Origin: Escherichia coli
GTDB taxonomy: Bacteria > Pseudomonadota > Gammaproteobacteria > Enterobacterales > Enterobacteriaceae
NCBI RefSeq assembly: GCF_029227855.1
Contig: NZ_CP074357.1
DNA length: 64,000 nucleotides
Direction: 5' to 3' (one strand)
Shown: piece after piece, positions 1 through 6,000 of the stretch
How positions within the stretch are numbered: the stretch's first letter is position 1
Layout of the letters: each line of letters starts with the position of its first letter
Program-made: the position numbers

Positions 1-3000
1 ATTTACGAGGGTGCGGTAGGCAACGCCATCATAACTTTGAGCATCAAATAACTGGCTTTTCCGATTCTTTATATCGTTAACAAAGCCATCCTCATCCCCA
101 TAACGATCTGCGGCGTTGAACTTTATATCGCTGTGCTTTTGCTCTGAGCTGAAAATCTCTCCCGTATTTGTTTTGGTTCCAGGAGTAGTATTGGATTACT
201 GCTTATACCAATGTTGCCATTAGCATCACGAGAGAGCAGCTTTGCCCCTTCCTTGGTGTAGTTTGAATTGATTGTCCCTCCAGACATACTCGGCAGTTGT
301 ACGGCGCTACCAATAGACTTTCCATCGGATGCGGCATTTTTCATGACACTTTCATTAGAGTTCCCTGCCCCATACTTCCGAGATTAAGATTAGCGGATTC
401 GGCTTTACCCACGTATTTCTCGGTGATCTTCCCACTGACATTCTCGCCTGAATCCGCGTTCTTGTATTTCTCCACAATGTCCTGAGCACTGGTGGTTGCA
501 TTGCGATTTGCGTTAGGATTTGCAAGGTTAAAATTATTTTCGAGCTGGTCAAATATAGCGTCAGCAGCGTAAACACGTGGTGTCATTACCATGTTTATGA
601 GTGTGACATAAAAAGCCCAACTCATAGTATTGGCAACCATTGATGCAATAATCGCTGAGGTGATTGTTTTTCTAAGTTTCACTTATTTTCTCCTTAGAAA
701 TCAAACGCCCGGAACGTAGCGAACACAACAGTCATTGTAACGCCACAACATATAGACATAATTATCGTTGCCTATTTTTTTGCGCCCACCTTTAAGGGTT
801 GACCAGTCGTGTACCGAATCAAGACGATGACAGCAATCCGGTCCCTTCGCCTCAGGAGTAGGGAAAAGCATTGAAGCCGATACTGGGAACGTGGTGTAAA
901 GTATTCCCACGTTTTCTCACACATTGCGTCTGCTCCCATCGTTCGCATCAGCATGCCTTGGCGATGTAGTTTTGTCAGAAGACGCTGGGTAATCAGTGAA
1001 CTCGTCCTTACAGCGTCATCATTTGCGTAAATGTGGCCGGTTAATGGGTAAAGGTTGCCATCGCATCCGGCACAAAAGTATGCAGCGAGATTATCCTTTC
1101 CTGCTGTTACTGCTACACAGTCAGCAGCGCACACCATTGAGGCAATTGGGTTTGCAAAAACTACTGCCTCGGGATTCAGGACGAGTGTAAGCAGATCACT
1201 TTCCCACATAGGGTCCACTTCGCTTATATAGGTCAGGCTGGCATCTATATAGGGTTCAGCAGTGCACTCGCCAATAATCAGTAATTTGAGCATTGTCATG
1301 ATTGGGAACTCCCAAAGATGAACATCGTAAAATCCGGCTTCAGTTGCTGTCATTGGCTGATTAGTGTTGCTTTTACCAATATCAAACTGCGATTTTTGAA
1401 GCATCGTGCCTTCAAGAAAGGGGCTGCACCAGGGCTCTTTACAACTTCTACAATCTTCACCGGCTGAAAGAAGCTCAATTGCCAACCTATTTCCGGTACG
1501 CCGTTCTGATCTGTGCAGTAGCAACCCGGACGTGAAGGTGCAGCGCCTTCTGGAGCAGCCCCTATGCCCATTATCCTCATGGGAAAAATGCAGCTCCAAC
1601 AGATATTCTTAATCAAGCCCTGCCACACTCCAGCTGACTGACACATAGCCCAGGGACTCCAGCATCTGCTGCCATAGCCATACCAGGTATAGAAAGCGAA
1701 AGCATAACTGCTACAATGAACTCTAAAAGTAACTTTTTGAATTTTTTCACCATCATGCTCACTTGGATGTAATAAATGTTGCAACACTTTCGATATAGTC
1801 GACGGCTTTGGTAAAATAACTTCTCATCTGGTCCGGATAATTTAGCGTCAGCCATGTTGCAAAGAGAGCGCCTATAATAAATCCGAGTTTCATATTATTT
1901 TTCCTCTGAAAGATTTGGGGCTCCGATTCCACGGACTTCTGCCTCGCTAAACAGGGTGATCCGGAATTTATCTTGGTCAGTAGTTATAAGCGCAGGTGTA
2001 TTTTTAATCTGAAAGCGTGAGATAATCTGTTCGTTTACTTTAAACACCTTACCGTTAAATTTTTCACGTAAATCATTTAGGTGATCCCATCCATTATCTT
2101 TTTGGATACGGGTAAACATTGGCATTACTTTTCCACTACCCAGACGTTGTCGATACTGCTGCTCAGCCCATACCAGCTGGCCCGGATTGAGTGGATCGAA
2201 AATTATCATCGTCAGGTTTTGAGGAAATCTCGAAAGTGGATTAATCAACTCACCGGCGGAAGCTATTACACGGCCCTGCTTATCTTTTACGTCCTGAGTG
2301 ACCCTCACTGTAGGGTCAATTAAAAATTCTTTGTGTTCCTGGGCAGGAGGGAGATCGACCATCCATTGATTTTTCCAGGTGTCCGCAACGGCCCTTTTTT
2401 TTGCACCTTCCCAGTCATATTTTTGTGCGCGTTCTTCCAGTTCTTTAATGATGCTCTTTTCTTCAACGGGATAAATCGTACCAGCAACAGGAAAAATGTC
2501 CTGATCGGGTTTTTTAGCAAGTTCTCGCTGAAAAAACTCAACGTTGAAGGACCCTACCATTTTTGCAAACGAGCTTGCTCCCGAGAAATAATTGTCGGTA
2601 CTTGAGTTACTTGATACTGACTGAAGCTATCAGGATCAATTGTAATCAAAGGAGATTCAAATTTTCCTTTGACAATCATTTGGTTTATTGCTGCCTGTGT
2701 CTCTGGTAGCCGAGTAGTTCCTTTCTTTAGACCATTGAAAACTACACGAGCTTTATGCTCTGAGGCCGTACGTAAAAGGTCTTCCAGTACATAATCCGGT
2801 AAGCTAAATGAAGCAAAGATCGTTATACCATTTTCAGTTGATAGTGCTTCTTCACGTGTGCTATCCATTTTTCTTTCGAAGTCAGCAGCTGTGATGCCCG
2901 AGGAACCAAACAATTTTCGATATTTTTAGATTGTCCTCGCATGACTTCCGGCTTATTTTCCACAGCTTTCAGAGCCGCTTCATTAAGGCTGGCGTTTTCC

Positions 3001-6000
3001 TGAATTTCATCACGTCTTCTAATTATATCGTTGACAGCATCAGAGTTATTACTTTGGGCCCTTATAGCCTGGGTATGGTCTATAACTGCTTGAACACTAT
3101 CCGCATTCATACCGGGCACGTAACCACGGTTTGTTTGCCTGCTCAGGTCCTGGTTTTTTTGAGTGCTTCAGCTTGCGCAATGTACTTCTGCACATCTGGT
3201 GAATTTAGCGTAGCATCAAGGCTAAGAGCCCCATCTGGCTGCTGTGCACCTTTAGCCTGAGCGCCAAGCCCTTTTGCTTGCTGAGCGATTAGGTCAGCAT
3301 CATGTTGATACTCAGTGCTTGCATTTGTATTACTTAAAACTGCACATAACGCAAGTCCAGGAAGTATTGGTAAATATTTTTTATTTACATTAAAAGATCG
3401 CATATGTTTTCCCAATTACTGAATTCAGCTTTACTGTTCCCCAAAACGGGAATCCCATGAGTGATCGGTTTGCCCAATTAGGAAAACTTCGCCTTCAGGA
3501 ATTATCAATTCTTTTTCAATCAAAATGGACGGAATACTGTATTTCTTTGAAATACGACGTGCATTAGCTTCAAAAATTTGTCCCCGTTATAAACCCCATC
3601 CATTGTTACTTTGAGTTGTCACCGCCCACACCGGCAACAATTTTTATGACTCGTTCATTTTCTGGGATAAAACGAACCGATTTCGGCATGTTGAAAGCTA
3701 TGAGTTCACCAGTTTTAATAGTTTTATCCGAATGATCAATCATATAAAAATCAGCAGGCAGGCACCCATTCAATAAACCGTATCCAAATGTATAACGGGT
3801 GAAAAAGACACACATAACGAGAATCAGCAATAAAATATTAATGGGGACATACCAATCCAGTATAAGCAGCCCTCTCTTTTTAGGTATGTAGTCGCTCATA
3901 TTTTTCTCACTGGCACTGAAGAATATTTTTACTAAGTAGATACACCTCTATCCAAGTACTATTATCCATGTTTTTCAACGCTCGGAAGTCTGCAAACTAA
4001 CCTAATATTCACCTATAAGGATGTTAATTTCTCAGCATGTAGACGCAGCCTTGTTAGCGGCCATGAAAGATACCTTTGTAGCAAGTTACTTTCCGGTATT
4101 AATTTTTCAAAGGTCCAATTGTTGGGCATAAAAAAGCCGGGACAAAATGTCCCGGCTTTATATTTAAAAATTTATTACTCACTGCTTGGTATTGATACAG
4201 TGTATTCAGACTTACTTGCCTCTTCAGCCGGTCCGAAAACTGTCACGTGCTGCGTTGCAAAGTCTCCACTATCATCATAAGCAATTACTTTTATGTCCTG
4301 CTTACCACGGTTAAGGTTTTTAGAAAGTGTAGCCGTACTACCGAAAACGTTCCTTAATTCGCCGTTGATGAACCATTCATATCTAACCATTTTTCCATCA
4401 GTATCATCACATTTATTGGTAAAGCTCCAGCTTAGGTTGGTTTCCGTGTAGCTCAATGTACAATTAGGCACTGCGTTTTTAACGACATCAAACTCAACAG
4501 ATGCTGAACCTCTCTGTCCAAGTTTACTAACAACATCAATTGTGATCTCGTATTTCTTTTCTTTTAAACCCGAAATCAGTTGAGCCCAATAATTTTGCCG
4601 CTGGGTATTACCTCACCGTTCACCTTGTATGTGACCGTATCTATCGAGTCCGCCGAATGAGATAGCTTGATGTTTGACCTTAAGGTTACATCGAGTGGAG
4701 CTCTCATATATTTGTTAGAGAACTTGGGTGTCATCTCAACGTTCATTGGCGTTTGTTCATCGACAACAAAGGTATTTTCGATACGCTGTTCATTGTTGCG
4801 GTTATCTTTGAAAACAACCATCAATGTATATTTGCCAGGATTTTCAATTGTAAATTCTTTGGTGTCACCTTCATCTTTAGTGATTACCAGATTCTCTTTG
4901 TCGTAAATCCATTCTCGGGAATAAGTAACACCAGGATAGTCTCCATCCTTAATACCGCTCAACGCAACGCGTAGGGTGGTCGGTGCCATGTCGTATTTAA
5001 GTTTGGAGCTTATTTTCATTTCGGGGAATTTATAAACCCACGATTTGACAGAAACTCTACGGGTAGAAACCGTATTCTCCTTATTGTCCGCTAACCATGC
5101 ACTGTATTCAAAAGCAGCATATCCCTGTTTATCCAACATTTGCTCAGTAAGGGTAACAGACAGTGTAGAGCCTTTAAATGTCTGGCCATCCGGTGTTTTC
5201 CATTCTTCAACTACGTTATTACCATTCTGGTACTTACTGTTAGGGTTCGTGAACTTACCTTCCAAAGTAACTTTTGACCAACCTCTACCTTAGAAACCCC
5301 CGTTACCGAGACAGAAAGGCGCTTGGGTTTTGCGGCTGCCAACCGAGCAGACGTTTCCTTCATGAAGACTCCTCTGCCAGTTCATCGGAATCAAGGTAAC
5401 GCATCCGGGCATAAATCGTAGACGGTAGGGTATCAGCTGAAGCCACAGTGTAAGTTGTATCTCCCTGCACCCAGTTGACTTTATCCTCTGACCAGAGAAC
5501 CTCAGCGGTGCCTGCTGGTATAGGCTCATCGTTATCAAGCAGGGTTACAGGTACATCTGAGCCCTGAAGAATGTCTGTCACATCTATACTGAGCTTAGGC
5601 TGCTTGTAGGTAACTACCGTTAAGGCATCTGTGTAGGAAACCTTAGATGTGAATTTATTGGTCATTTTTGCCCTATAAAGCCACTTTCCTACTTCTGTCT
5701 TTTTGATACTTACACTTCTCTTTCCGGTCATGTCGGAAAGCATATTCCAGGTTTGACCATTATCAGAGGACTGCTGCCATTCGGTGGGGGCAAGTGCGTC
5801 AGAGTTAGCAGTACTGGCAGATTTGAAGCTTACCAGAGTACTAAGTGGGATCCTTCCGATAATAAGGCTTTTCGACAGGTTACCCTCCAGTTCCTCACCT
5901 TTATAGATTCGAATGCCTACAGCACTGGTCTCACGTTTCATTTCAAAATCAGAGAATGGCGATCTGACCTTAGCCACACCAACCAGACGCATATTACCCA

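What the first reader, a model, noticed from the sequence alone, without database searches (positions are those of the whole stretch)
123..5265. Cluster of at least 8 frameshifts confined to the distal mating-pair-formation genes while the proximal operon is intact
traU is spread over four frames, the trbC/traW fusion over four, the S26 peptidase over two, the putative traN start over two and the 4175..5265 gene over two. By contrast traC (2.7 kb), traB, traK and the 3.1-kb gene at 5360..8476 are intact. Several breaks lie near short homopolymers. This is either genuine decay of the transfer system (the plasmid would be non-conjugative) or a localised region of indel sequencing error.
Basis: seen in the sequence. 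Interest (0 to 1): 0.55.

Follow-up and report, generated by a model that had tools for sequence, protein, structure and literature searches.

The report
Assembly errors at plasmid contig start
The broken conjugation genes are almost certainly not real decay: they come from 17 small deletions, nearly all in short runs of one base, packed into the first 5.4 kb of a deposited IncHI2 plasmid sequence, which is the signature of an unpolished contig end.

Summary
The window is positions 1-64000 of NZ_MZ152088.1, a 267-kb E. coli IncHI2 plasmid. The frameshift cluster is real in the deposited sequence and larger than reported. Against near-identical plasmids there are 17 deletions between 193 and 5361: 16 of one base and one of 3 bp. 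They break trhN, trhU, trhW, trhF and rsp.

The "intact 3.1-kb gene" at 5360..8476 is only the first 1038 codons of the 1434-codon rsp.

Several results point to a sequencing or assembly artefact rather than biology:
- All 17 changes are deletions, with no substitutions in the zone.
- All 16 single-base deletions shorten runs of 2-8 identical bases.
- Two fall in intergenic DNA.
- None is shared by about 1,100 related plasmids or 274 E. coli complete genomes.
- The zone begins at record coordinate 1, inside trhN, and ends inside rsp.
- The other side of the circular junction and 73 kb of compared DNA have no indels (Fisher p about 1e-20).
- Two sister records from the same submission batch have the same kind of private indel cluster in their first 1.5-2.2 kb.

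Adding back the 19 bases restores all five genes exactly. This is an ordinary artefact of low interest. Only reads or resequencing can prove it formally.

The parts
1..5361 (.). Error-rich zone at the start of the deposited record. It holds 17 private deletions (19 bases), about 1 per 315 bp, evenly spread, with no substitutions.
   Evidence: alignment to NZ_CP037959.1. (KS test against uniform p = 0.89; Fisher p = 1.5e-20 against 73 kb of compared DNA). (other side of the origin is clean).
1..682 (-). The first 228 codons (in the reference) of trhN, the IncHI TraN mating-pair stabilisation protein. The gene continues across the record origin. It is broken by single-base deletions in the runs at 193-194 (GG, GGG in the reference; codon 164) and 378-379 (CC, CCC in the reference; codon 102).
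   Evidence: (the intact reference protein scores 2528 bits to NF011459 TraN, cut-off 1267). (the rest of trhN across the origin has no indels).
701..1750 (-). trhU (TraU-like pilus assembly protein, 351 codons in the reference). It is broken by deletions at 874-875 (AA from AAA; codon 294), 1432-1434 (G3 from G4; codon 107) and 1649-1651 (C3 from C4; codon 35). There is also an in-frame 3-bp deletion at 820-821 (codon 313).
   Evidence: (TraU NF010297, E = 3e-61, below the curated cut-off).
1895..3403 (-). trhW (TrbC-TraW fusion, 503 codons in the reference). It is broken by deletions at 2567-2569 (A3 from A4; codon 280), 2914-2917 (T4 from T5; codon 164) and 3154-3160 (T7 from T8; codon 84). 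RefSeq annotates four fragments here under three new accessions (WP_275877714-16) and one accession also found elsewhere.
   Evidence: (TraW TIGR02743 and TrbC TIGR02742 domains).
3390..3899 (-). trhF (S26 signal-peptidase-like protein, 170 codons in the reference). It is broken by deletions at 3443-3446 (A4 from A5; codon 154), 3572-3576 (A5 from A6; codon 110) and 3616-3617 (TT from TTT; codon 95).
   Evidence: (signal peptidase I TIGR02227, 52.7 bits, above the cut-off of 47).
3900..4174 (.). Intergenic spacer between trhF and rsp. It carries two more single-base deletions, at 3958 (A from AA) and 4083-4084 (AA from AAA). This shows that the process ignores coding status.
4175..8476 (-). 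rsp, one gene of 1434 codons in the reference, encoding the large Ig-like secreted protein required for IncHI conjugation. It is broken by deletions at 5361 (C from CC; codon 1039), 5272-5275 (T4 from T5; codon 1069) and 4593-4596 (T4 from T5; codon 1296). The ORF at 5360..8476 is only its N-terminal 1038 codons.
   Evidence: PMC6764697 for RSP function.
5362..32065 (.). Clean comparison stretch covering the rest of rsp, the htd genes, par genes, traC, trhV, trhB, traK, traE and traL. It has 0 indels and 2 substitutions against the same reference.

Best explanation
The frameshifts are consensus errors in the deposited assembly, not mutations in the plasmid.

Shown: the first roughly 5.4 kb of the contig as the assembler emitted it carry a base-calling/consensus error profile typical of poorly covered or unpolished long-read sequence. 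The record starts mid-gene in trhN, so it was never rotated to a conventional origin. The errors are under-called homopolymer lengths plus one small multi-base deletion. The rest of the record is at finished quality.

Follows from the alignment: the real plasmid most likely carries intact trhN, trhU, trhW, trhF and rsp, identical to those of its many near-identical IncHI2 relatives. Restoring the 19 missing bases recreates those genes exactly.

Inferred: the real plasmid is expected to be conjugation-proficient.

Also inferred, not shown: the cause of the one-sided zone. One possibility is that a low-coverage contig end was kept when the terminal overlap was trimmed at circularisation. Another is that a stretch was filled from uncorrected long reads.
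For: 1. Direction and type. There are 17 of 17 deletions, 0 insertions and 0 substitutions in 5,361 bp. The compared DNA elsewhere shows the opposite pattern, 0 indels and 5 substitutions in 73,221 bp (Fisher p = 3.8e-5 for type and 1.5e-20 for clustering).

2. Context. All 16 single-base deletions shorten runs of 2-8 bases. [quoted passage not shown] Homopolish reports uncorrected homopolymer indels causing frameshifts and excess pseudogenes (PMC8011154).

3. Position tied to the assembly.
- The first deletion lies at window 193-194.
- The junction 267429 to 1 is exactly continuous with the reference.
- The 16.5 kb on the other side of the origin has 0 indels.
- The zone ends inside rsp.

4. 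Private to this record. Every next-best hit listed among 1,121 matching plasmid records has the identical score and the full 5,370 bases. The same holds among 274 E. coli complete genomes.

5. No regard for coding. Two of the 17 are intergenic, against 1.4 expected.

6. Recurrence in the same submission batch.
- NZ_MZ152087.1 (strain B) has 12 single-base indels and 0 substitutions in its first 1,485 bp. It then has none for about 10 kb apart from one gap at the edge of the next alignment block.
- NZ_MZ152089.1, identical to NZ_CP074360.1 (strain D/XJ6.2), has 13 private single-base indels at 918-2245 against the canonical TnAs1 tnpA and IS26 sequence. That canonical sequence is 100% identical in records sampled across the 5,000 best plasmid matches. 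PGAP flags the IS26 there as frameshifted.

7. Elsewhere in the record. In the 249 kb examined, the listed proteins carry accessions outside the WP_2758777xx series minted for these fragments. Resistance genes are 99.5-100% identical to reference alleles.
Against: - No reads, quality values or assembly metadata are available here, and no paper mentioning the accession was found. The artefact is therefore inferred from sequence comparison only.
- Replication slippage in vivo also favours homopolymers, so context alone does not discriminate.
- The error zone is on one side of the origin only, whereas a simple low-coverage-at-contig-ends model would predict both sides. This needs an extra assumption about how the overlap was trimmed.
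- The direction of the errors differs between sister records. It is all deletions here and mostly insertions in strain D.
- Record positions 209,001-227,429 were not examined.
Confidence: 0.95

Rival explanations
1. Genuine pseudogenisation. The plasmid in strain C has really lost trhN, trhU, trhW, trhF and rsp through accumulated slippage deletions and is non-conjugative.
For: The frameshifts are truly present in the deposited sequence and hit five genes needed for mating-pair formation. RSP loss alone abolishes detectable R27 transfer in liquid medium (PMC6764697). Slippage in vivo also prefers homopolymers.
Against: - The plasmid differs from relatives by only about 1 substitution per 15 kb elsewhere. 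On my own knowledge that indels are about ten-fold rarer than substitutions in E. coli, about 0.05 indels would be expected in 5.4 kb, not 17.
- There are no substitutions, insertions or IS hits in the zone.
- The deletions occur at the same density in intergenic DNA.
- The zone starts at record coordinate 1 and cuts through trhN and rsp rather than following any functional unit.
- No relative shares any of the deletions.
- Sister records show the same phenomenon in unrelated sequence at their own starts.
Confidence: 0.03
2. A real localised mutation shower. A single error-prone repair-synthesis tract, for example by Pol IV/DinB or the plasmid's own UmuDC homologues at a double-strand break, left a 5-kb patch of -1 frameshifts.
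For: On my own knowledge, Pol IV characteristically makes -1 deletions in mononucleotide runs and break-associated mutagenesis is local. The plasmid encodes umuDC. The pattern of only deletions, only in runs, in a bounded tract, would fit qualitatively.
Against: - On my own knowledge, 3.2 events per kb is orders of magnitude above known error rates of such polymerases.
- A biological tract would have to begin by coincidence within about 200 bp of an arbitrary linearisation point of a 267-kb circle, roughly 0.2% by chance.
- Sister records have clusters at their own record starts with mixed insertions and deletions. A biological shower does not predict that.
Confidence: 0.01
3. Functional frameshifting or phase variation. 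The homopolymer tracts are contingency loci or programmed frameshift sites that switch transfer genes on and off.
For: One tract is T8 in the reference (window 3154-3160), within the range where slippage becomes appreciable.
Against: - Fifteen of the 16 tracts are only 2-6 bases long.
- Only 6 of 45 runs of at least 5 bases in the zone are affected.
- Each affected gene carries two or three frameshifts (three in four of the five), so no single switch could restore it.
- About 1,100 relatives all have the full-length state.
Confidence: 0.005

Closest known systems
Homopolymer indel errors in long-read (nanopore or PacBio) bacterial assemblies that create spurious frameshifted pseudogenes (Kastor, PMC12007338; Homopolish, PMC8011154)
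   Same: Single-base deletions in runs of 2-8 identical bases. Genes are fragmented although the DNA is otherwise identical to relatives. The reference-based fix restores the ORFs exactly. PGAP emits fragment proteins and pseudogenes.
   Different: Here the errors are not genome-wide. They are confined to the first 5.4 kb of the contig, on one side of the circular junction only, while the rest of the record looks polished. The sequencing platform is unknown.
IncHI2 Tra2 transfer region (R478-type plasmids): trhN-trhU-trhW-trhF-rsp
   Same: Gene order is the same. Apart from the 19 missing bases there are no substitutions against NZ_CP037959.1 and the other listed best hits across this region. 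The rsp homologue of R27 is required for conjugation (PMC6764697).
   Different: Only the 17 private deletions.
Genuine decay of conjugation genes in large resistance plasmids (loss of transfer by IS insertion, deletion or point mutation)
   Same: The outcome on paper is several mating-pair-formation genes interrupted.
   Different: On my own knowledge, real decay usually shows IS insertions, larger deletions and a mix of substitutions and indels, is often shared by a lineage, and is not tied to a record's coordinate origin. None of that applies here.
Phase-variable homopolymer tracts (contingency loci)
   Same: Length change in mononucleotide runs causing frameshifts.
   Different: The tracts here are mostly 2-6 bases, each affected gene has two or three frameshifts, and there is no variation among relatives.

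Membership tests
Sequencing/assembly indel artefact | The differences are private to the one record and absent from near-identical relatives. | tested here: met
   every next-best hit listed among 1,121 matching plasmid records has the same score and 5,370 bases against 5,351; the same holds for 274 E. coli genomes.
Sequencing/assembly indel artefact | The error spectrum is typical of the technology: homopolymer length miscalls, with few or no substitutions. | tested here: met
   16 of 16 single-base deletions are in runs of 2-8, with 0 substitutions in 5,361 bp. This matches the spectrum in PMC12007338.
Sequencing/assembly indel artefact | The location is tied to an assembly coordinate (a contig end) rather than to a biological unit. 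| tested here: met
   The zone spans record positions 1-5361. The first deletion lies at 193-194. There are 0 indels in the 16.5 kb across the origin. The limits fall inside trhN and rsp.
Sequencing/assembly indel artefact | It recurs in other assemblies from the same pipeline or submission. | tested here: met
   NZ_MZ152087.1 has 12 indels in its first 1,485 bp. NZ_MZ152089.1, identical to NZ_CP074360.1, has 13 indels at 918-2245.
Sequencing/assembly indel artefact | Read-level evidence: low coverage or quality, with reads supporting the longer runs. | not testable with these tools
   No reads or quality values are available, and no publication was found.
Genuine pseudogenes / decayed transfer region | The mutation spectrum and density are compatible with the divergence seen in the rest of the replicon. 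| tested here: not met
   The zone has 17 indels and 0 substitutions. The 73 kb of compared DNA has 0 indels and 5 substitutions.
Genuine pseudogenes / decayed transfer region | The lesions respect a functional unit or are inherited by related plasmids. | tested here: not met
   The boundaries lie inside genes, and no relative carries any of the lesions.
Genuine pseudogenes / decayed transfer region | Loss of conjugative transfer as a phenotype. | not testable with these tools
   This needs a mating assay at 22-30 C.
IncHI2 Tra2 mating-pair-formation genes (trhN, trhU, trhW, trhF, rsp) | Sequence identity and synteny with annotated IncHI2 Tra2 genes. | tested here: met
   there are no substitutions against NZ_CP037959.1 over these genes, and the order is the same.
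IncHI2 Tra2 mating-pair-formation genes (trhN, trhU, trhW, trhF, rsp) | The repaired proteins match curated family models. | tested here: met
   TraN NF011459 scores 2528 bits (cut-off 1267), and signal peptidase I TIGR02227 scores 52.7 (cut-off 47). The TraU, TraW and TrbC models are hit significantly but below their equivalog cut-offs. RSP has no NCBIfam model.
Phase-variable contingency loci | Long mononucleotide tracts (typically at least 7-8 bases) with one switchable frameshift per gene. | tested here: not met
   Only one tract reaches 8 bases, and each affected gene carries two or three frameshifts.

The most novel reading that the evidence does not exclude
The 17 deletions are real and were laid down in one event: a local shower of -1 frameshifts produced by error-prone repair synthesis over a roughly 5-kb tract of the plasmid's transfer region. 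That tract then happens to abut the point where the assembler opened the circle.
Probability: 0.01. Interest if true: 0.6.

Novelty: not a real feature. Interest (0 to 1): 0.04.

Why it matters
The biological significance is essentially nil. The plasmid is a typical multidrug-resistance IncHI2 plasmid whose transfer genes are almost certainly intact.

The practical consequences are these:
- Reading the record at face value would wrongly class a probably transmissible plasmid as non-conjugative. It carries blaCTX-M-55, qnrS1, floR, tet(A) and other resistance genes.
- RefSeq has minted new protein accessions (WP_275877714-17) for fragments that probably do not exist.
Automated scans should therefore treat bursts of private homopolymer indels next to record coordinate 1 as a quality flag, not as biology.

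Tried and rejected
- Genuine decay. Rejected on spectrum, density, privacy and coordinate coincidence.
- An error zone straddling the circular junction. Tested and rejected: the last 16.5 kb of the record has no indels and the junction is exact. The zone is one-sided.
- Other error zones in the record. The gene tables for 1-209,000 and 227,430-267,429 show no other record-specific fragment proteins. Positions 209,001-227,429 were not examined.
- A twin or polished copy of the strain C plasmid in complete E. coli genomes. None was found. A twin exists only for strain D, and it is byte-identical over the part compared.
- The source publication or sequencing platform. Searches for MZ152088 and XJ6.2 found no paper, and a search by resistance-gene content found only an unrelated paper.
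- NZ_CP031295.1 as a reference for the strain D record. It was abandoned because that record is itself full of indels. The canonical TnAs1/IS26 sequence was used instead.
- Two early scripts failed because of file naming.
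Full report
**What the window is.** A megablast of window 1-9000 finds a 100% match to NZ_MZ152088.1 positions 1-9000. That record is "Escherichia coli strain C plasmid unnamed1", 267,429 bp, circular, typed IncHI2A plus IncN. The window is therefore the first 64 kb of that record. More than 1,100 plasmid records hold the same region. The best of them match at 99.8% over 9,019 bases against 9,000 in the window, so the window lacks 19 bases. In the intact relative NZ_CP037959.1 the region encodes, on the minus strand, trhN, trhU, a TrbC-family gene (trhW), trhF and rsp.

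**Checking the observation.** The ORF map shows fragmented reading frames on the minus strand from about 120 to 5360. Base-level alignment of the window against NZ_CP037959.1 gives one collinear block over window 1-32065 with 2 mismatches and 19 gap bases. All 19 gap bases lie between window 193 and 5361.

There are 17 events, every one a deletion in the window: 16 of one base and one of three bases. By gene they fall as follows.

| Gene or region | Events | Codons affected |
|---|---|---|
| trhN | 2 | 102, 164 |
| trhU | 3 frameshifts plus the in-frame 3-bp deletion | 35, 107, 294; 313 |
| trhW | 3 | 84, 164, 280 |
| trhF | 3 | 95, 110, 154 |
| trhF-rsp spacer | 2 | intergenic |
| rsp | 3 | 1039, 1069, 1296 |

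Two details of the finding are wrong:
- The "intact 3.1-kb gene at 5360..8476" is only the N-terminal 1038 codons of the 1434-codon rsp.
- The "4175..5265 gene" is the C-terminal remainder of the same gene.

The gene identities hold at the protein level for the intact reference versions:
- TraN scores 2528 bits, above its cut-off of 1267.
- Signal peptidase I scores above its cut-off.
- TraU, TraW and TrbC are hit significantly but below their equivalog cut-offs.
- RSP has no NCBIfam model. It is the Ig-like secreted protein required for IncHI conjugation (PMC6764697).

**Is the clustering more than chance?** I extended the comparison over the rest of the window and across the record origin.

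| Stretch | Indels | Substitutions |
|---|---|---|
| Window 5362-32065 | 0 | 2 |
| Window 34017-35407 | 0 | 0 |
| Window 35408-64000 | 0 | 1 |
| Record 250,897-267,429 (other side of the circular junction) | 0 | 2 |

That makes 17 indels in 5,361 bp against none in 73,221 bp (Fisher p = 1.5e-20). Within the zone the events are evenly spread (KS test against uniform p = 0.89), about one per 315 bp.

**What kind of process made them?** Seven independent properties point to consensus error rather than mutation.

1. Direction and type. All 17 are deletions, with no insertions and no substitutions in the zone. The compared DNA elsewhere shows only substitutions (Fisher p = 3.8e-5 for type).

2. Context. 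All 16 single-base deletions shorten runs of 2-8 identical bases. Fourteen of 16 are in runs of at least 3, against a 21.7% baseline (p = 4e-8). [quoted passage not shown] It also matches the frameshift and pseudogene inflation described for uncorrected long-read consensus (PMC8011154).

3. Indifference to coding. Two of the 17 lie in the 8% of the zone that is intergenic, against 1.4 expected.

4. Privacy. With window 100-5450 as query, the record itself scores 100%. Every next-best hit listed among 1,121 matching plasmid records has the identical lower score and the full 5,370 bases. The same is true of 274 complete E. coli genomes. No relative carries even one of the deletions.

5. Coordinates.
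- The zone begins at record position 1. That point is not a conventional origin but the middle of trhN, so it is where the assembler opened the circle.
- The junction 267429 to 1 is exactly continuous with the reference.
- The remaining 2.5 kb of trhN across the junction is clean.
- The zone ends inside rsp.
- The limits therefore follow the assembly, not operons.

6. Recurrence. The neighbouring accessions come from the same submission.
- NZ_MZ152087.1 (strain B, also IncHI2) has 12 single-base indels and no substitutions in its first 1,485 bp. It then has none for about 10 kb, apart from one gap at the edge of the next alignment block, and in that stretch the only differences are substitutions.
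- NZ_MZ152089.1 (strain D) is identical to NZ_CP074360.1 from E. coli XJ6.2. It has 13 private single-base indels at 918-2245.
- The comparator for strain D is the canonical TnAs1 tnpA and IS26 sequence. It is 100% identical in records sampled across the 5,000 best plasmid matches.
- PGAP marks the IS26 there as frameshifted.
- Three of three records thus share a noisy first 1.5-5.4 kb.

7. The rest of the record. In the 249 kb examined:
- The listed proteins carry accessions outside the record-specific series.
- Resistance genes are 99.5-100% identical to reference alleles.
- The fragments in the zone received new accessions, WP_275877714-17.

**Best explanation.** The frameshifts are assembly or consensus errors confined to the start of the contig.
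- Shown: the deposited sequence differs from its relatives only by under-called run lengths in that zone. Restoring the 19 bases recreates all five genes exactly, because there are no substitutions.
- Inferred: the real plasmid has intact Tra2 genes and is probably conjugative.
- Inferred with less certainty: the cause of the one-sidedness. A poorly supported contig end may have been kept when the terminal overlap was trimmed for circularisation, or a stretch may have been filled from uncorrected long reads.
- The platform is unknown, since no paper could be found.
- I put this explanation at 0.95.

**Rivals.**
- Genuine decay (0.03). It would require about 17 slippage deletions in 5.4 kb of a plasmid that otherwise differs from relatives by about one substitution per 15 kb. 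It would also require no accompanying substitutions, the same density in intergenic DNA, and a start that happens to coincide with the record origin.
- A real mutation shower from error-prone repair synthesis (0.01). This is the most exotic reading not strictly excluded. Pol IV-type polymerases make -1 deletions in runs (my own knowledge), and the plasmid carries umuDC. However, the density is orders of magnitude too high and the coordinate coincidence is about 0.2%. The sister records also argue against it.
- Phase variation or programmed frameshifting (below 0.01). It fails on tract length and on the two or three frameshifts in each affected gene.

**Comparison with what is known.** This is a textbook case of homopolymer indel error creating spurious pseudogenes. 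Its only unusual aspect is that it is localised to one contig end of an otherwise clean record. The underlying locus is an ordinary member of the IncHI2 Tra2 region.

**Novelty and verdict.** This is not a real biological feature, and interest is about 0.04. The value is practical. The record should not be used to infer loss of transfer ability. The fragment proteins are probably spurious. Clusters of private homopolymer indels next to record coordinate 1 deserve an automatic quality flag. Formal proof needs reads, Sanger sequencing across 1-5,400, or a mating assay at 25 C.

Noticed in passing
L010 (NZ_MZ152087.1) 1-1485; L011 (NZ_MZ152089.1, identical to NZ_CP074360.1) 918-2245: Two sister records from the same submission batch (E. 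coli strains B and D/XJ6.2) also carry private single-base indel clusters in their first 1.5-2.2 kb and are clean afterwards. Strain B has 12 indels and strain D has 13. This looks like a systematic contig-start defect of the submitter's pipeline.
   Followed up: yes
window 17827-21325: A tandem array of 249-bp units, about 14 copies at roughly 73% match, lies between parA (16194-17447) and traC (21813-24494). It is more GC-rich (about 0.50) than its flanks (about 0.36-0.40). It has no ORF of 90 aa or more and no annotated CDS in either this record or the reference plasmid, which has the same array.
   Followed up: partly
window 32066-34016: An IS100 (IS21-family, istA/istB) insertion that is absent from the reference plasmid. 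It is flanked by a 5-bp ATTGG duplication and lies between the Tra2 operon start and the RepB/trfA replication gene. A second IS100 copy lies at record 238,031-239,832.
   Followed up: partly
L012 (NZ_CP031295.1, pGD31-F1928) 1194-16117: This unrelated public plasmid shows 45 gap openings and 76 mismatches over 9.4 kb against the strain D record. Its Tn3-family transposase is annotated as several fragments. It appears to be another error-laden long-read record and was unusable as a reference.
   Followed up: no
window 1895-3899 (record annotation): RefSeq assigned new protein accessions (WP_275877714 to WP_275877717) to fragments of trhW and trhF created by the deletions. MOB-suite still types the plasmid as conjugative. 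Both the protein databases and the mobility typing are blind to this kind of error.
   Followed up: partly
window 48370-50826, 56488-58908, and 64461-66851 of the record: Three further large Ig-like-domain proteins are encoded around the RepHI2 replicon, in addition to RSP. They are identical to those of the reference plasmid.
   Followed up: no
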